IMG/VR virus record: IMGVR_UViG_2681813320_000022
Source: a virus
Lineage: Duplodnaviria > Heunggongvirae > Uroviricota > Caudoviricetes
Direction: 5' to 3' (one strand)
Length of the DNA: 4,346 nucleotides
The number at the start of each line of letters is the position of its first letter. Within the stretch, counting starts at the first letter, position 1. The translations under genes were made by a program, and so were the position numbers. Of this stretch, positions 1-4,346 are shown piece by piece. The notes below the pieces were generated by a model. That model saw only the letters and a list, made by a program, of their open reading frames with translations. It did no database searches and was not told the DNA's origin.

Positions 1-103
1 GAGTTGATGGCTCATGATGTCCCTCTGGGATGCGCTCCGGATGAATATGATGATCTCATATCAGGAACTTGTTCGCACCTTCCTTAGTTAGTGTGGCTTT
101 TAG

Positions 104-355
104 TCAAGTAAGATGACGTCTTGGTCTCGCTGATGCCTGGCGCTCAATCCAGCGATCAATTTCTTCCAGGTTGTAAAAGCATGGACTGTTATCCCATGGC
201 ATACCGTCATGAGCGACATGCTTATATTCCCTTCCTTCCATAAACGATTTTTCCCGGGCCTTTTTTAACGTACCTTTTTTTATTCCTTTCAGCGCAATTA
301 ACTGCTCTTCGGATACCCATTTGCCGGGAGAGACAATCATGATTACTTCGCTCAT
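104..355 (-). CDS. xis: Excisionase-like small DNA-binding protein (Xis / recombination directionality factor family)
   Basis: 83-codon ORF ending in TGA. From the sixth residue (MIVSPGKWVSEEQL...) the protein aligns by eye with lambda Xis: Trp at position 8, basic helix region, and a GREY motif (MEGREYKHVA versus lambda KDGREYLFHE). It lies directly downstream of the exonuclease gene on the same strand and upstream of a probable int start, the canonical exo-xis-int order. The true start may be the internal ATG at 340..338; both candidate starts have weak purine-rich SD. Confidence 0.6.
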   Translation of the reverse strand: MSEVIMIVSPGKWVSEEQLIALKGIKKGTLKKAREKSFMEGREYKHVAHDGMPWDNSPCFYNLEEIDRWIERQASARPRRHLT

Positions 356-384
356 CGATTTCTTTATCTCTTACATCAGACGAG

Positions 385-416
385 CGCCGGTTGCAGAATA
401 CCAGTCACAACCGGCG
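385..416 (-). repeat. GC-rich inverted repeat (9-bp arms CGCCGGTTG / CAACCGGCG, 14-nt spacer) in the exo-xis intergenic region
   Basis: Arms at 385..393 and 408..416 are exact reverse complements. It sits 12 nt downstream of the exo stop and about 30 nt upstream of the xis start. No U-tract follows on the minus-strand transcript, so it is not a canonical intrinsic terminator. Confidence 0.45.
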
Positions 417-427
417 ACAGTTGAACA

Positions 428-2461
428 TTAAGAATCAGCCTGACTCGGGATCAGTTTTTGCCAGATAACTGAAACGTATTTTGCCTGGTAACGGGCGTCA
501 TCAAGTGCATTATGGCGCTCACCTTCGAATGGAATAGCCGTTCTGGCATCGAAGTCTATGGCTTTCCCCAGCTCAACGATTGTGCGTACATCGCGATCGT
601 TGTAGTAACGCCACGGGCAGGGGATCCCCTGCCGTTCGTATGAACGGCGCAAAATCGTGTTGTCGAAGTTGGCTCCATTTCCCCAAACCTGAACAAAAAA
701 TTCACCGGAGTTTTCGTCGATAAATTCTCGCAATTGTAACAGTGCATCATCTAACGGGATTTCATCGGTCATAATGGCAGATTGCGCTTCGCGTGATTGC
801 TTAAGCCACCATTTAATGGTGTCCCGATCAATGACTCCGCCAGCAGTTTCCAGATCGATAGTCTTACTAAATTCCGGTCCCATATCTCCGGTTTGCGGAT
901 CGAAAAATATTGCACCTATTGAGATGATCGGGGCATCAGGATTTTTTCCCATGGTTTCAAGGTCGATCATTAGATGGTCACACGTCCTGCTGGTGGATGT
1001 GATTTCGTGATGACTGTTCACCTTAATTGGGTGATCTGCCGTCTCGCCAGTTTCATTATCGCTATTGTGATGCTGATTGCCGCCAGTGTTCTCCTTGTGT
1101 GGATGTTCAGCGCCTTCCATTTCCTCCGGATCATCTTCCTGAACTTCAACCTGATACTCTTCATCGAATGTTTCTTGGTATGTTGCGTCGCCCATCACCG
1201 CGCCACAATCAGGGCAGTTGCCGCCGCCGGTCTGACCGCAGGCGGTGCAGACTTTTTCCACTTCCTGTTGCGCTACTGGTTCAGGCTGTTTCGTTTCTGG
1301 CTCGTTTTGTAACGCATTTGGACTGTTTTGTTCCGCTTTTTGGTAGTTCCGTTCCGATTCATGCTGGTTCTGGTTCACAGAATCGCGGGTCTGGAGCCCC
1401 TTAACCCATTTCGGATCATTCGGGTCACTAATCCCTTCAACAAATTCACCACGTGATGCAGCAAGCAACTTATCGGCGTCAGGCTGGCTGATATTGGCTG
1501 CCTGCATAATTTTGTTTACTTCGTCAGCGGTAACTTTTATCGGCTCTGGTTGTTCTGAATCTTCAGCGGTATCTACATTTTGCGGTAAGCCCGTGTATGT
1601 GCCATTTTTTCGGGCAAAATATTCTTCTTTTGTGATTTCAGTGGCGCCAGCAGCCAGTGCCTTATCCAGACCAGAGAGTTTGTTTGCGCGACCGTATTTT
1701 TCTCCGTCCTTATCTGCGAAGAGGAAATAGAACGGCCCCTCACGCTCTACAGATGGTTCAGCTTCCGGCGCGGTTTCATTTTTTGGGATATCAGATACCT
1801 CAGTTTCCACTGCATCAGTTTGTGTTTCTGATGACTGGAGAACATCAACAGTGCCCAGGTCTGTTTCTTCATTCTCAAACACGCCCTTTGTCGTCAGGTA
1901 TTCGCAGATATATTTGTTCAGTGCTACGGGATCTTTGTGAATGTCGATCGGACGCTCACGGACAAGGCCAAAAATAGTTTGGCGGTCGTAGCGAAGGGCA
2001 TCAGGCTGTTTGCGCATTGATGCCGAGATACGCTTCCAGTCTTCGCGGTCGTTGTCGATAACTTCTTTTTTTGCCCAGCGATGGATGCTGCCGTCAATGT
2101 TTCCGGCATCCACATCACTAGGCCAGAGAGCGTAGGCCAGTTCGTCATCCAGTGTTTTCCATGTCTGCTTGTATTCGCGATGAATGGCAGCAATGACCGG
2201 GCTGATTTTTCCTGTTGAATTTTCAGTGTACTGTTGATTGGCTCTGGCGCGGGCGAGATCAACAACAGACGTGTATTTTCCGGTTTCCTTGCGTTCACCT
2301 TCGCGACGTTTTTTCCAGATGCGCATCTCTGCCTGAATTTCGGGCCATTTAGCACCAGGAATACATTTATGCTTAACCCACCCAATGGCGTGCAACTTAA
2401 GCTCCGGATACGGGTTATTCCCCTCTGAACAGGCGCGTAAGGACTGGCAAAACGCCCGCAA
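428..2461 (-). CDS. Prophage exonuclease: C-terminal DnaQ-like DEDDh 3'-5' exonuclease domain, central CxxC-x7-CxxC zinc ribbon, acidic/His-rich linker, N-terminal domain of unknown function
   Basis: Uninterrupted 677-codon frame ending in TAA at 430..428. All DEDDh motifs are present in order: Exo I MIDLET (D500/E502, nt 956..964), Exo II VWGNGANFD (D600, nt 662..664), Exo III HNALDD (H650 nt 512..514, D655 nt 497..499). Zinc ribbon CTACGQTGGGNCPDCG at nt 1205..1249. The annotated start at 2461 is TTG; the real start may be internal (TTG at 2395 with GGAG SD, or ATG at 2326), so the 5' end is uncertain. Confidence 0.8.
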   Translation of the reverse strand: MRAFCQSLRACSEGNNPYPELKLHAIGWVKHKCIPGAKWPEIQAEMRIWKKRREGERKETGKYTSVVDLARARANQQYTENSTGKISPVIAAIHREYKQTWKTLDDELAYALWPSDVDAGNIDGSIHRWAKKEVIDNDREDWKRISASMRKQPDALRYDRQTIFGLVRERPIDIHKDPVALNKYICEYLTTKGVFENEETDLGTVDVLQSSETQTDAVETEVSDIPKNETAPEAEPSVEREGPFYFLFADKDGEKYGRANKLSGLDKALAAGATEITKEEYFARKNGTYTGLPQNVDTAEDSEQPEPIKVTADEVNKIMQAANISQPDADKLLAASRGEFVEGISDPNDPKWVKGLQTRDSVNQNQHESERNYQKAEQNSPNALQNEPETKQPEPVAQQEVEKVCTACGQTGGGNCPDCGAVMGDATYQETFDEEYQVEVQEDDPEEMEGAEHPHKENTGGNQHHNSDNETGETADHPIKVNSHHEITSTSRTCDHLMIDLETMGKNPDAPIISIGAIFFDPQTGDMGPEFSKTIDLETAGGVIDRDTIKWWLKQSREAQSAIMTDEIPLDDALLQLREFIDENSGEFFVQVWGNGANFDNTILRRSYERQGIPCPWRYYNDRDVRTIVELGKAIDFDARTAIPFEGERHNALDDARYQAKYVSVIWQKLIPSQADS

Positions 2462-2480
2462 AAAACTCTCGAGGGCAAAG

Positions 2481-2651
2481 GTGAAGAAACCTGCTGTGGT
2501 TGATCCGGACCTTATCTGGTCATCACCTGACGGAGAAATACGTCGCTACGACAGTCGCCTAAACATAATCTGTCGCGAGTGCCGGAAGAGCGAAGTTATG
2601 CAGCGCATACTGGCTTTCTATCAGGGTAATTTTCAGGACGTGGCGCAGTGA
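2481..2651 (+). CDS. Small hypothetical protein (57 aa from GTG; frame is open back to ATG 2385, which would give 88 aa)
   Basis: GTG at 2481 is preceded by GAGGG (2471..2475) with a 5-nt spacer. The TGA stop (2649..2651) overlaps the GTG start of the next ORF (GTGA at 2648..2651), a translational-coupling arrangement. The ATG at 2385 lacks an SD and would overlap the 5' end of the exo frame on the opposite strand. Confidence 0.4.
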   Translation: MKKPAVVDPDLIWSSPDGEIRRYDSRLNIICRECRKSEVMQRILAFYQGNFQDVAQ

Positions 2652-3004
2652 GTGCACCGGCAACCATTCTTGATATGTGCTGTGGCAGCCGCATGTTCTG
2701 GTTCGATAAGTCTGACGAACGGGCGATATTCAGCGATATCAGAAAAGAAGGATACACATTACGCAATGGGAGACGCTTGATTATCAGCCCTGACATTATC
2801 GCAGATTTTCGTGCATTATCATTTGCAGACGCATCTTTTTCGATGGTTGTATTAGACCCTCCGCATCTTGAGAGTGTTGGTGATAACGCCTGGATGGGAA
2901 AGAAATATGGACGGCTGAATAAAGATGCCTGGCGTGATGATTCGCGACAGAGATTTAAAGAAGCCTTTCGGGTGTTGAGGCCGCACGGCGTTCTGATTTT
3001 TTAA
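2648..3004 (+). CDS. SAM-dependent DNA methyltransferase-like protein (motif I then motif IV, gamma-like order), short and probably truncated or interrupted
   Basis: 118-codon ORF with motif I-like ILDMCCGS (nt about 2669..2692), catalytic motif IV DPPH (nt 2855..2866) about 60 aa later, and a RVLRPHGVLIF strand typical of the Rossmann methyltransferase fold. It stops at TAA 3002..3004, after which the same frame is open for 29 more codons to TAA 3092..3094. No C-terminal target-recognition region is present. Confidence 0.55.
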   Translation: MSAPATILDMCCGSRMFWFDKSDERAIFSDIRKEGYTLRNGRRLIISPDIIADFRALSFADASFSMVVLDPPHLESVGDNAWMGKKYGRLNKDAWRDDSRQRFKEAFRVLRPHGVLIF

Positions 3005-3237
3005 TGGAATGAAACGCAAATACCGGTAAGCCAGATTCTGGCACTGACAGACAGAAAACCTGTTATCTGTCAACGAACAGGGAAAAAACGATAAAACCCA
3101 CTGGATTATTTTTATGAAAGAGGCATCCAGTGAGTAGATTCGTAAGGCTACAGATACGTATATCTGAATAATTAAATTCAGTTCTGTAAATAAAATTTAA
3201 TCCTTAACCGGATGGATTTCTGCACCCTCAGAACATC

Positions 3238-3266
3238 AGGAGGCCGCCCGAAAGGGCGGTAGTGAA
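3238..3266 (+). promoter_or_regulatory. Structured ribosome-binding site: AGGAGG, then a 6-bp GC stem with GAAA tetraloop, then 7 nt to the ATG
   Basis: AGGAGG at 3238..3243; stem CCGCCC (3244..3249) / GGGCGG (3254..3259) with GAAA loop (3250..3253); ATG at 3267. Linear SD-to-ATG spacing is 23 nt; with the hairpin folded it is about 7 nt. Confidence 0.45.
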
Positions 3267-3377
3267 ATGCGAAAGTTCAAAATTATTATTGAAACGGGAA
3301 TAGCTGGTGGAGATTTTGAGGATGTATTCGAAGTGGACGATGACGCAACACCTGAGGAAATTCATGACGGAGCATAA
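3267..3377 (+). CDS. Small acidic protein, 36 aa (MRKFKIIIETGIAGGDFEDVFEVDDDATPEEIHDGA)
   Basis: ATG start served by the structured RBS above; TAA at 3375..3377. Eleven of 36 residues are Asp/Glu. The frame stays open for 23 further codons after the TAA, up to TGA 3447..3449. Confidence 0.4.
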   Translation: MRKFKIIIETGIAGGDFEDVFEVDDDATPEEIHDGA

Positions 3378-3441
3378 GAAATTTTCTTTAACTACTGCAA
3401 TTACTCATACCACGAAATAAAAGACGATGAGGAAGAACAAA

Positions 3442-3618
3442 GTGGCTGATTTTTGTTCAGCTAAATATAACATCAGTTTTGAAGAGCGGGATGAACTATT
3501 AATGGACTATGGTGAGTTACGCGGTGGAAGTGCTGCTGATGTCGAATCCTAGCGTGATGACTATGAAGCGGGAAAAACTCCGGTCGAAGCATATTGTGAT
3601 GAGTGGGGCGATGAATGA
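3442..3618 (+). pseudogene. Small acidic ORF with an in-frame TAG at 3550..3552: 36 codons from GTG 3442 (41 from ATG 3427), then 22 open codons to a TGA that overlaps the next start
   Basis: GTG 3442 is preceded by GAGGAAG with a 6-nt spacer. After the TAG the frame has no stop and no internal start for 22 codons and ends in an ATGA overlap with the ATG at 3615. This is either a nonsense-interrupted gene or a 36-41 aa gene followed by a chance open frame. Confidence 0.3.
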
Positions 3619-3902
3619 GCGAGATTAATTATCAGGAAGGGCATGAAACGGCGGGGCAAGCAAAACCAGTGGCATGGCGATATCGCTACGTGAAAAAAGG
3701 CGTTACGGACTTTCAGGGGAAGTAGTGGTCTGGTGACTGGAAATATGTACCGAAAAAAGAGGATTGTAACGACAGGCCGAACTATCAAATTCAGGCCTTA
3801 TTCACTGCCTCACCAGTCCCAGTTACATCAGAAGAACTGGTTAAAGCTGTGCACTTTTATGAACAACTAAAACGCGAAAATCCACCAACATCCGGCAACT
3901 AG
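3615..3902 (+). pseudogene. Hypothetical protein gene with an in-frame amber at 3723..3725 (36 codons, TAG, then 58 open codons to TAG 3900..3902)
   Basis: ATG 3615 overlaps the upstream TGA (ATGA). The 58 codons after the TAG have no in-frame ATG, GTG or TTG. They read as ordinary mixed protein (WSGDWKYVPKKEDCNDRPNYQIQALF...), whereas the alternative frame ORF at 3745..3870 is Lys/Arg-rich as expected for an out-of-frame read. Confidence 0.4.
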
Positions 3903-4145
3903 ATTAATGGATTAACTATGTCGGTTAAACGACCAGCCAACTGAAAAAGCGGAAACCTGATTACAGGTTGCCAGATAAGGCAATGAGCTACCTGGCGCGG
4001 AACGGACTGATAAGTATGGGGAATGTTTTACGATGAACCTTTAGACTAAAGAGTTTGTAACGCTATGTAAGTGATTTTTTCTGGTTTAGATATTTATATG
4101 TCCGGCCAAATTGAGGTGTGTTTAAATGTAATTGCACATTGATTG

Positions 4146-4152
4146 TAGGAGG
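4146..4152 (+). promoter_or_regulatory. Strong Shine-Dalgarno (TAGGAGG) for the ORF starting at 4157
   Basis: TAGGAGG at 4146..4152, 4-nt spacer, ATG at 4157..4159. Confidence 0.5.
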
Positions 4153-4156
4153 AATA

Positions 4157-4252
4157 ATGAAAAACGCATTGCAGTTTTTGTTTGTTGCGTTCTGGTTGTT
4201 CGCATCATGTATGCCCATCATCTTCACAGCGGTAATGACTCCAACTTATTGA
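4157..4252 (+). pseudogene. 5' fragment of a gene encoding a protein with a hydrophobic N-terminus (MKNALQFLFVAFWLFASCMPIIFTA), disrupted by IS1 insertion
   Basis: Strong SD plus ATG. The first 24-25 codons (4157..4230) are host or prophage sequence; from 4231 the frame continues into the IS1 terminal inverted repeat and stops at TGA 4250..4252 inside IS1, so the native 3' portion is displaced. Confidence 0.45.
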
Positions 4253-4346
4253 TAGTGTTTTATGTTCAGATAATGCCCGATGACTTTGTCATGCAGCTCC
4301 ACCGATTTTGAGAACGACAGCGACTTCCGTCCCAGCCGTGCCAGGT
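4231..4346 (-). mobile_element. IS1 insertion sequence, right-end inverted repeat plus 3' part of insB (partial; continues beyond the window)
   Basis: 4231..4253 GGTAATGACTCCAACTTATTGAT is the IS1 terminal inverted repeat. The following 93 nt match, from memory of the well-known IS1 sequence, the reverse complement of the IS1 right end (...CTGCATGACAAAGTCATCGGGCATTATCTGAACATAAAACACTATCAATAAGTTGGAGTCATTACC). Confidence 0.9.
4246..4346 (-). CDS. insB: IS1 transposase InsB, C-terminal end (partial; 5' part lies outside the window)
   Basis: The minus-strand reading ends ...[29 protein letters not shown] with its TAA stop at 4248..4246 inside the terminal inverted repeat, as in canonical IS1. Confidence 0.8.

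What the first reader, a model, noticed from the sequence alone, without database searches (positions are those of the whole stretch)
4157..4346. IS1 insertion truncates a well-expressed gene after 24 codons of a hydrophobic N-terminus
TAGGAGG plus ATG 4157 is one of the strongest RBSs in the window. The encoded N-terminus (MKNALQFLFVAFWLFASCMPIIFTA) is a transmembrane or signal-like segment. The IS1 right inverted repeat starts at 4231, so the ORF reads into IS1 and stops there. The displaced gene could have been a membrane protein (superinfection-exclusion, lysis or toxin type), and the 9 bp at 4222..4230 is the expected target-site duplication position.
Basis: partly seen in the sequence, partly recalled or inferred. 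Interest (0 to 1): 0.4.

Follow-up and report, generated by a model that had tools for sequence, protein, structure and literature searches.

The report
IS1 splits a small prophage membrane-protein gene
An IS1 jumping gene has landed inside a tiny, unannotated 59-codon membrane-protein gene of a decaying Qin-type prophage of E. coli, cutting it in half; the insertion is ordinary, and the only mild interest is that the little gene looks real, is conserved and has no known function.

Summary
AGGAGG (4147-4152) precedes ATG 4157. The frame runs 24 codons plus 2 nt, enters the IS1 right end at 4231 and stops at 4250-4252, giving a 31-aa product. A near-identical genome has the full 768-bp IS1 flanked by the 9-bp duplication CTTCACAGC (window 4222-4230). 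Removing IS1 plus one repeat restores a 59-codon ORF, MKNALQFLFVAFWLFASCMPIIFTARYMEKVDVLILIFGYINALFLGVFMAVMCIEYWR.

That ORF is contiguous in 1555 of the 1567 complete E. coli genomes that carry it. RefSeq never annotates it. It lies just upstream of a hok/sok locus in Qin-type lambdoid prophages.

A 41%-identical paralogue of exactly the same length exists in another prophage relic, also next to a hok remnant. Comparing the two favours the plus frame as coding: no indels, highest amino-acid identity of the six frames, pN 0.34 against pS 0.72. The antisense ORF carries stop polymorphisms. Against this, all 9 polymorphisms within the clade are nonsynonymous.

The protein is predicted as a two-helix membrane hairpin with no match to any family. 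"Well-expressed" is unsupported: this strain has lost the early promoter region and the two upstream genes are pseudogenes.

Verdict: a routine, probably neutral IS1 knockout of an uncharacterised small membrane protein.

The parts
4147..4152 (+). Shine-Dalgarno motif AGGAGG, 4 nt upstream of ATG 4157
   Evidence: Sequence reading. It is one of only two AGGAGG copies in the window, and the other (3238) is 23 nt from its ATG.
4157..4230 (+). Native 5' part of the 59-codon small ORF. It covers 24 codons plus 2 nt and encodes the first hydrophobic helix, or a possible lipoprotein signal with the invariant S17-C18.
   Evidence: 100% identical to the start of the intact ORF in L002 6958-7031. Alignment A1 gives the invariant residues.
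4157..4252 (+). Truncated fusion ORF actually present in the window. It is 31 aa, MKNALQFLFVAFWLFASCMPIIFTA + VMTPTY read from IS1, with stop TGA at 4250-4252.
   Evidence: Translation. The same 31-aa product is encoded in L001 and L020.
4222..4230 (.). Left copy of the 9-bp IS1 target-site duplication CTTCACAGC. The right copy lies beyond the window end.
   Evidence: Direct repeat D1 in L001 at 7023-7031 and 7800-7808, spacing 777. Removing IS1 plus 9 bp restores the 59-codon frame, whereas removing 8 or 10 bp does not.
4231..4346 (-). First 116 bp of IS1, entered from its right end (inverted repeat 4231-4253). The transposase genes are on the minus strand and the element runs off the window.
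   Evidence: The full 768-bp element is at L001 7032-7799, annotated as an IS1A-family transposase with programmed frameshift at L001 7047-7744 on the minus strand.
4063..4227 (-). Antisense shadow ORF (54 aa here, 85 aa in uninterrupted alleles, annotated 'hornerin' or hypothetical in some phage records). Judged not to be a gene.
   Evidence: Stop-codon polymorphisms occur in 44 of 109 and 6 of 109 loci. The frame also contains stops in the paralogue.
3615..4036 (+). Upstream neighbour, a pseudogene of a 171-aa hypothetical protein (frameshift and internal stop). It ends 120 nt before the small ORF.
   Evidence: RefSeq annotation of L001 and L002. It is intact in E. coli 55989 and broken in 91 of 115 sampled loci.

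Best explanation
Context. The window is part of a decayed Qin-type (dicB / relBE / hokD) lambdoid prophage of E. coli.

Ancestral state. A 59-codon gene sat about 120 nt downstream of the nin-like early genes and about 90 nt upstream of the hok/sok locus, on the same strand as the rightward early operon. Its product is most likely a small inner-membrane helical hairpin:
- helix 1 spans roughly residues 5-25;
- a short polar loop follows at 26-32;
- helix 2 spans roughly residues 33-55;
- both ends probably face the cytoplasm.
The motifs conserved between clades are W13, S17-C18-x-P20-I-I-x-T24, F38-G39-x-x-N42-A-L and E56-x-W58-R59.

The event. IS1 transposed into codon 25, between helix 1 and the loop, and duplicated CTTCACAGC. 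The frame now runs six codons into the IS1 right end and stops. The allele therefore encodes only a 31-aa helix-1 peptide and lacks helix 2 and all C-terminal conserved residues, which makes it a null allele.

Consequence. In this strain the early promoter region is deleted and the two upstream genes are already pseudogenes, so the insertion is most likely a neutral step in prophage decay.

Shown: the IS1 element, the duplication, the restored frame, the distribution of intact alleles, the paralogue, and the coding-type divergence between the two clades.
Inferred: membrane topology, transcription from the early operon, the null phenotype, and neutrality.

Function is not known. My best guess, at about 30%, is an accessory envelope-acting protein of the kind prophages carry next to membrane toxins such as Hok.
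For: IS1 insertion:
- The element is 768 bp, has the IS1 inverted repeats and an annotated insAB' transposase, and is flanked by a 9-bp duplication.
- The uninterrupted allele reads as 59 codons.
- Removing IS1 plus 9 bp restores the frame.

Frequency:
- The exact junction is found in only 3 complete genomes plus one IMG/VR contig.
- 1555 of 1567 genomes carrying the ORF hold it contiguous, at 98.3% nucleotide identity or more in every row of a 60-record spread.

Evidence that the ORF is a gene:
- An exhaustive HMMER search found a 59-aa paralogue at 41% identity. It is present in 1045 genomes.
- The two ORFs align end to end without gaps, while their flanks need many indels.
- Differences by codon position are 25 / 17 / 31, with pN 0.34 and pS 0.72.
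- The plus frame has 25 of 60 identical codons against 14-18 in the other five frames. P = 0.003 for that identity together with an open frame, under random placement of the 73 differences.
- Polymorphism density is 5.8% in the ORF against 13% upstream and 10% downstream.
- The ORF is intact in 109 of 115 sampled loci. The equally short upstream genes are intact in only 60-63, and the 171-aa gene in 23.

Protein and context:
- AlphaFold2 gives two helices, 2-26 and 28-58, at mean pLDDT 74. The hydropathy profile has two maxima.
- A hok leader (Rfam RF01794, 104 bits) follows the ORF.
- A hok coding relic follows the paralogue.
- The 4.6-kb deletion of the early region is shown.
Against: - Within the Qin clade all 9 variable sites in the ORF are nonsynonymous and none is synonymous. 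The probability is about 0.07-0.12 under neutrality, and this is the opposite of purifying selection.
- The codon-position bias between clades is modest: 25 / 17 / 31 is not significant on its own.
- The family is confined to E. coli and Shigella, with only two clades.
- There is no Pfam, PHROG, NCBIfam, PADLOC or PDB match.
- The BFVD fold search gave nothing better than E = 1.
- RefSeq never annotates it.
- No promoter-like site lies upstream.
- No expression data were found, and the peptide appears in no searchable paper.
- Counts of intact versus broken neighbours are not phylogenetically independent.
Confidence: 0.7

Rival explanations
1. The 59-codon frame is not a gene. IS1 simply landed in an AT-rich spacer between decaying early genes and the hok/sok locus, and the open frame, Shine-Dalgarno motif and hydrophobicity are by-products of T-rich sequence.
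For: - 0 of 9 within-clade polymorphisms are synonymous.
- RefSeq never calls it.
- It matches no family and has no homologue outside E. coli and Shigella.
- AGGAGG frequency in the window is no more than chance.
- The flanks of the two clades are also partly alignable, so the similarity could be plain DNA homology.
Against: - Two copies about 40% diverged at the DNA level keep the same start, the same stop and an indel-free 60-codon frame, while their flanks are full of indels.
- The plus frame has the highest amino-acid identity of the six frames, with joint P = 0.003.
- Polymorphism density is lower than in the flanks.
- The frame is open in about 99% of 1567 and of 1045 genomes, although neighbouring genes of equal length are often broken.
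Confidence: 0.2
2. The product is a small lipoprotein rather than a plain two-helix hairpin. Residues 1-17 would be a signal peptidase II signal, with lipobox L-F-A-S|C18 (I-V-I-S|C18 in the paralogue). The mature 42-aa lipopeptide would be held in the inner membrane by the C-terminal helix. The IS1 allele would then yield only a 14-residue lipopeptide.
For: - Read from alignment A1, both clades have K or R in the first three residues.
- Both have an uncharged hydrophobic run of 12-13 residues.
- Both have an invariant S17-C18 that fits the PROSITE PS51257-type lipobox pattern (pattern recalled from general knowledge).
- C18 is the only cysteine conserved between the two clades.
Against: - Residues after C18 (MPIIFTA or VPIILTS) are hydrophobic, unlike typical mature lipoprotein N-termini.
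- Residues 5-25 form a canonical 21-residue hydrophobic span.
- AlphaFold2 models 2-26 as one continuous helix.
- No lipoprotein-prediction tool was available, so this rests on pattern reading only.
Confidence: 0.2
3. The ORF encodes a toxic membrane protein and the IS1 insertion was selected because it inactivates it. This would parallel the IS inactivation of chromosomal hok loci in K-12.
For: - At least three independent IS1 insertions lie within 28 bp of the ORF, at offsets 74, 96 and 102, all in the same orientation and each with a 9-bp duplication.
- Further truncated fusion products exist in public data: P0026, P0030, P0032, P0033, P0035 and P0038.
- The gene neighbours the membrane toxin Hok.
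Against: - Only about 12 of 1567 genomes have a broken copy and 2 of 1045 for the paralogue, so there is no widespread pressure to inactivate it.
- Clustering of insertions fits the known IS1 preference for AT-rich targets (general knowledge).
- In this strain the region was already promoter-less.
Confidence: 0.07
4. The real gene is the antisense 85-aa ORF (annotated 'hornerin' or hypothetical protein in phage records PV340562 and ON470612), and IS1 disrupts that one.
For: Phage genome annotators called it. It is open across the whole region in the reference allele.
Against: - A stop polymorphism is present in 44 of 109 loci and another in 6 of 109.
- The frame has two stops in the paralogue.
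- Its asparagine- and lysine-rich composition is what the reverse complement of hydrophobic codons produces.
Confidence: 0.03

Closest known systems
IS1 (IS1A-type) insertional gene inactivation in E. coli and Shigella
   Same: A 768-bp element with about 23-bp imperfect terminal repeats, an insA-insB' frameshift transposase, a 9-bp target duplication and an AT-rich target. It causes simple truncation of the target frame.
   Different: Nothing unusual. The only particular point is that the target is an unannotated 59-codon ORF that has been hit independently at least three times within 28 bp.
Hok/Gef type I toxins (the adjacent locus)
   Same: Small hydrophobic prophage-encoded membrane peptides. 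The small ORF is physically linked to a hok locus in both of its clades.
   Different: There is no sequence match to the Hok_Gef family. This protein has two hydrophobic segments rather than one. No antisense RNA or fold-back leader was identified for it. It lies outside the hok mRNA, upstream of that mRNA's 5' end.
GhoT/OrtT-type two-helix membrane toxins and class II holins or pinholins (e.g. S21)
   Same: Size of 57-70 aa and a two-transmembrane-helix hairpin architecture.
   Different: No HMM match. It is not located in the lysis cassette, which in related phages has its own holin S, endolysin and Rz about 5.5 kb downstream. It lacks a charged C-terminal tail. No partner antitoxin gene is evident.
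Unannotated small membrane proteins of E. coli found by ribosome profiling or epitope tagging (general knowledge of that literature)
   Same: Fewer than 60 aa, hydrophobic, preceded by a Shine-Dalgarno motif, missed by annotation pipelines, and often prophage-borne.
   Different: K-12 MG1655 lacks this ORF because the region between ydfX and ydfW is deleted. The K-12 surveys therefore could not have seen it, and no experimental evidence was found.

Membership tests
IS1 family insertion sequence | Element length of about 768 bp | tested here: met
   L001 7032-7799 is 768 bp. Only the first 116 bp (4231-4346) lie inside the window.
IS1 family insertion sequence | Imperfect terminal inverted repeats of about 23 bp (GGTRATGMYKCCAACTTAYTGAT) | tested here: met
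   The right repeat GGTAATGACTCCAACTTATTGAT is at window 4231-4253. The left repeat, as the reverse complement ATCAGTAAGTTGGCAGCATCACC, ends at L001 7799.
IS1 family insertion sequence | Target-site duplication of 9 bp (8-11 bp) | tested here: met
   CTTCACAGC lies on both sides, 777 nt apart. Only a 9-bp removal restores the frame.
IS1 family insertion sequence | insA-insB' transposase made by programmed frameshift | tested here: met
   RefSeq annotates an IS1A-family transposase with programmed frameshift at L001 7047-7744 on the minus strand. This rests on annotation and was not re-derived.
Bona fide protein-coding gene (the 59-codon ORF) | Reading frame, start and stop conserved in divergent homologues, with protein-level constraint | tested here: met
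   The paralogue is 41% identical, has the same length and aligns without indels. pN is 0.34 against pS 0.72. The plus frame is the best of six, with P = 0.003.
Bona fide protein-coding gene (the 59-codon ORF) | Excess of synonymous over nonsynonymous polymorphism among close alleles | tested here: not met
   9 nonsynonymous and 0 synonymous variable sites in 109 loci.
Bona fide protein-coding gene (the 59-codon ORF) | Evidence of translation | not testable with these tools
   The peptide appears in no paper of the searchable library. K-12 lacks the ORF.
Hok/Gef toxin family (PF01848) | Match to the family HMM or the conserved Hok motif | tested here: not met
   No Pfam or NCBIfam hit at E up to 10.
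Phage holins (class II / pinholin) | Two transmembrane helices in a protein of about 60-70 aa | tested here: met
   AlphaFold2 helices at 2-26 and 28-58. Two hydropathy maxima.
Phage holins (class II / pinholin) | Position in the lysis cassette next to the endolysin, and a match to a holin family model | tested here: not met
   In phage vB_EcoS-640R1 the holin S, lysozyme R and Rz genes lie at L004 12645-14177, while the ORF is at 7001-7180. No Pfam or PHROG hit.
GhoT/OrtT membrane toxins | Match to the family HMM | tested here: not met
   No Pfam hit at E up to 10. That Pfam holds a GhoT/OrtT model is my recollection and was not checked.
Bacterial lipoproteins | Lipobox [LVI..][ASTVI][GAS]C at the end of a signal peptide that begins with K or R | tested here: inconclusive
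   LFAS-C18 and IVIS-C18 fit the pattern, and S17-C18 are invariant. The hydrophobic stretch continues past the cysteine. No dedicated predictor was available.
Known anti-phage defence proteins | Match to a PADLOC model | tested here: not met
   No hit for either clade.

The most novel reading that the evidence does not exclude
The 59-aa ORF and its paralogue form an unrecognised small membrane-protein family. One or other clade matched in 1567 and 1045 of 5426 complete E. coli genomes (the overlap between the two sets was not counted). The family would be functionally coupled to hok/sok loci, for example as a second membrane-active effector or as a modulator of Hok. Its retention in prophage relics long after hok and the neighbouring genes have decayed would then reflect a benefit to the host.
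Probability: 0.12. Interest if true: 0.5.

Novelty: new member of a known kind. Interest (0 to 1): 0.25.

Why it matters
The IS1 event itself matters little. It is one more neutral-looking hit in a decaying prophage and is found in only a handful of genomes.

The modest value lies in the target. A conserved, RefSeq-unannotated 59-codon membrane-protein gene sits next to hok/sok in Qin-type prophages, and a second copy sits in another relic. If it is real, it adds to the catalogue of overlooked small membrane proteins. It also supplies natural null alleles, from three independent IS1 insertions, for testing what it does.

Tried and rejected
- Family searches of the 59-aa protein gave nothing: Pfam, PHROGs, NCBIfam and PADLOC and PDB sequences.
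- The fold search against BFVD returned only generic helical hairpins, all with E above 1. The afdb50 library was unavailable.
- A profile search with both clades found no third clade.
- A search of the literature for the peptide string returned zero papers. The recent Hok survey preprint says nothing about an upstream ORF.
- Rfam found nothing inside the window.
- Promoter scans found no sigma-70-like site upstream of the ORF. The scan also missed the hok promoter, so it is strict.
- The antisense 85-aa ORF was considered and rejected.
- I first took the downstream flank of the paralogue for a degenerate hok leader, from a gapped alignment. BLAST showed the significant match is instead to the 3' half of the hok coding sequence.
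It was rerun with alignment A2.
- I looked for the source genome. No complete E. coli genome in the collection carries both the IS1 junction and the IS5 junction at the window start.

Full report
**Observation**

The window reads TAGGAGGAATA-ATG, with AGGAGG at 4147-4152 and ATG at 4157. The frame gives MKNALQFLFVAFWLFASCMPIIFTA and then VMTPTY-stop, ending at 4250-4252. From 4231 the sequence is the right end of IS1, beginning GGTAATGACTCCAACTTATTGAT. The native part (4157-4230) is 74 nt, i.e. 24 codons plus 2 nt. Codon 25 remains Ala, so 25 native residues are kept and six are read from IS1. AGGAGG occurs twice in the window against 1.3 expected by chance. The motif alone is therefore not remarkable, although this is the only copy properly spaced from an ATG.

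**Where the window comes from**

Positions 81-4346 are 99.93% identical to E. coli SCPM-O-B-9504 (NZ_CP144930, locus L001). They are 99.98% identical to an IMG/VR contig, L020. The region is a Qin-type cryptic lambdoid prophage. In order it holds:
- an excisionase;
- a truncated exonuclease fused to a partial DUF977 gene;
- a methyltransferase;
- a DUF7167 pseudogene;
- a second pseudogene;
- IS1.

Against a fuller copy of the prophage (L002, NZ_CP026085), window 2402-2411 is the junction of a 4.6-kb deletion. That deletion removed ydfD, dicB, ydfC/B/A, dicA, dicC, the ydaT-like gene and the replication gene, and with them the early promoter region.

In L001 the IS1 is complete, at 768 bp (7032-7799). 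It is flanked by CTTCACAGC at 7023-7031 (window 4222-4230) and at 7800-7808. Removing IS1 plus exactly 9 bp restores a 59-codon frame; removing 8 or 10 bp does not.

The uninterrupted allele at L002 6958-7137 encodes MKNALQFLFVAFWLFASCMPIIFTARYMEKVDVLILIFGYINALFLGVFMAVMCIEYWR. The structural interpretation is therefore correct.

**How common is each allele**

- The 180-nt ORF is found in 1567 of 5426 complete E. coli genomes. It is contiguous in 1555 of them, at 98.3% identity or more in all 60 records listed across the ranking, and it is never annotated by RefSeq.
- The exact IS1 junction of the window occurs in only three complete genomes, all SCPM strains, plus L020.
- E. coli 55989 and MB57 carry independent IS1 insertions 22 and 28 bp further into the ORF. 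Both are in the same orientation and each has its own 9-bp duplication.
- Other truncated fusion peptides in public protein sets point to further independent disruptions. One of them (P0038) is consistent with an IS1 in the opposite orientation.
- K-12 MG1655 lacks the ORF altogether, because the segment between ydfX and ydfW is deleted.

**Is the ORF a gene?**

For:
- An exhaustive HMMER scan of 1.84 billion representatives found, besides near-identical copies, one divergent 59-aa relative at 41% identity over the full length. Its common form is P0042, MRKILMYLCISIWIVISCVPIILTSEYLTEASIMALMFGHANALCIGVFISIIYIECWR.
- That relative lies in a different prophage relic, between ttcA plus an integrase fragment and sit remnants plus uspF. 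It is present in 1045 complete genomes, again unannotated.
- The two ORFs align end to end with no gap and with coincident start and stop codons. Their flanks need many indels to align.
- Nucleotide differences fall 25 / 17 / 31 on codon positions 1 / 2 / 3. pN is 0.34 and pS is 0.72.
- The plus frame keeps 25 of 60 codons identical, against 14-18 for the other five frames. Only 0.3% of simulations that scatter the same 73 differences at random reach that identity with an open frame.
- Within the Qin clade the ORF is less polymorphic (5.8% of sites) than the 150 nt upstream (13%) or the 127 nt downstream (10%).
- In 115 sampled loci the ORF is intact in 109. The equally short upstream genes are intact in 60-63 and the 171-aa gene in 23. 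This comparison is not phylogenetically independent.

Against:
- All nine variable sites inside the ORF are nonsynonymous and none is synonymous.
- No relative exists outside E. coli and Shigella.
- No family model matches.
- No expression evidence was found.

The antisense 85-aa ORF that some phage records annotate ("hornerin") has stop polymorphisms in 44 and in 6 of 109 loci, and it has stops in the paralogue. It is a shadow frame, not a gene. I put the probability that the plus-strand ORF is a real gene at about 0.75.

**What the protein looks like**

AlphaFold2, run with the shallow alignment, gives two helices at 2-26 and 28-58, with mean pLDDT 74. Hydropathy shows two maxima separated by the polar stretch RYMEKVD, or EYLTEAS in the paralogue.

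Residues invariant between the clades are M1, L5, L8, W13, S17, C18, P20, I21, I22, T24, L36, F38, G39, N42, A43, L44, E56, W58 and R59. The basic N-terminus, the acidic loop of the paralogue and the C-terminal arginine suggest that both ends face the cytoplasm. This is an inference from the positive-inside rule.

An alternative reading is a lipoprotein signal. LFAS-C18 and IVIS-C18 fit a lipobox, and S17-C18 are invariant. However, the hydrophobic run continues past the cysteine, so I rate this at about 0.2.

Fold search against viral models returned only generic hairpins with E above 1.

IS1 cuts between helix 1 and the loop. Helix 2 and every conserved C-terminal residue are lost, which makes a null allele by inference.

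**Genomic context and expression**

- The ORF is co-oriented with the rightward early operon and starts 120 nt after the preceding gene.
- No sigma-70-like promoter was found upstream.
- The window strain has lost the dicA/dicC region.
- The two preceding genes are pseudogenes.

"Well-expressed" is therefore unsupported, and the insertion is probably selectively neutral here.

About 90 nt downstream of the ORF stop lies a full-length match to Rfam RF01794 (104 bits, L002 7227-7398), which models the 5' leader of hok mRNA. In phage vB_EcoS-640R1 this leader runs straight into mok/hok. The paralogue is followed 55 nt later by a relic of the 3' half of the hok coding sequence: 81% identity over 62 nt, with an internal stop. 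The small ORF and hok are thus old neighbours. Whether they are functionally linked is unknown.

**Comparison with known systems**

The insertion meets every IS1 criterion tested: length, inverted repeats, 9-bp duplication and annotated frameshift transposase.

The target ORF resembles small two-helix membrane proteins such as GhoT/OrtT or class II holins in size and architecture only.
- It fails their family models.
- It is not in the lysis cassette, which has its own holin about 5.5 kb downstream.
- It is not a Hok family member.

It is best filed as an uncharacterised, pipeline-missed small membrane protein of prophage origin.

**Verdict**

The event is an ordinary IS1 knockout in a decaying prophage, so overall interest is low. 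The modest novelty lies in the conserved, unannotated 59-codon gene and its natural null alleles.

Noticed in passing
L002 7227-10840 (downstream of the window; same prophage): The hok-type leader (Rfam RF01794, L002 7227-7398) is separated from the hokD coding sequence (10685-10840) by a 3,274-bp insert at 7398-10671. The insert holds an ISEsa1/IS1202-family transposase pseudogene, ydfW, flxA, ydfV, relB and relE.

The insert is flanked by a perfect 15-nt direct repeat GGAGAAGCAGGCTAT (family D6). Its ends are TGT...ACA with 19 of 26 matching inverted repeats, as described for the IS1202 family (PMC10132070).

Phage vB_EcoS-640R1 has the leader and hok contiguous. The K-12-type relB-relE-hokD arrangement therefore looks like a transposon-like insertion just before the hok start codon. 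I did not find this stated in the papers searched.
   Followed up: partly
window 1-84: The first 84 bases are the terminal part of an IS5-type element; in reverse complement they read GGAAGGTGCGAACAAGTTCCTGATATGAG.... The element is inserted between the excisionase and integrase genes. It is absent from the otherwise near-identical L001 and L020. No complete E. coli genome in the collection has this junction. The IS5 identity rests on my recollection of its inverted repeat.
   Followed up: partly
window 2402-2411: This is the junction of a 4.6-kb deletion relative to L002 593-5202, with a 10-nt overlap of the two alignments. It fuses a truncated exonuclease gene to a partial DUF977 gene and removes ydfD, dicB, ydfC/B/A, dicA, dicC, the ydaT-like gene and the replication gene.
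   Followed up: yes
L136 1472-2344 (E. coli 55989) and L137 1472-2350 (MB57); compare window 4231: Three independent IS1 insertions lie within 28 bp of the same 180-nt ORF, at offsets 74, 96 and 102 from the ATG. All are in the same orientation and each has its own 9-bp duplication: CTTCACAGC, AAAATTGAT and GATGTTTTG. Protein P0038 suggests a fourth, after codon 22, in the opposite orientation. This is a local IS1 hot spot.
   Followed up: partly
L131 8001-8180 and 8235-8296 (also L130, L132-L135): A 59-aa paralogue (41% identity) sits in a prophage relic between ttcA plus an integrase fragment and sit-operon remnants plus uspF. It is present in 1045 of 5426 complete genomes at 99% identity or more and is unannotated by RefSeq. 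It is followed by a dead hok fragment translating to VTKKDLHQVRI*GGQMEVDIY.
   Followed up: partly
window 4157-4230 and L002 6958-7137: All nine polymorphic sites of the ORF among 109 loci change the amino acid: A16V, M28I, V31I, I37M, Y40H, A43V, L44I, V48G and M53T. None is synonymous, although the ORF is less polymorphic than its flanks. This is unexplained. It could reflect relaxed constraint, diversifying selection or small numbers.
   Followed up: partly
window 3267-3449 and 3615-4036: The two genes upstream of the small ORF are pseudogenes here and in many Qin copies (DUF7167 with an internal stop; a 171-aa hypothetical with a frameshift and a stop). Both are intact in E. coli 55989.
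   Followed up: partly
L003 6907-7158 and L004 6907-7158 (minus strand; window 4063-4227): Phage records PV340562 and ON470612 annotate the antisense shadow ORF ('hypothetical protein', 'hornerin') instead of the plus-strand 59-codon ORF. This is probably a mis-annotation.
   Followed up: yes
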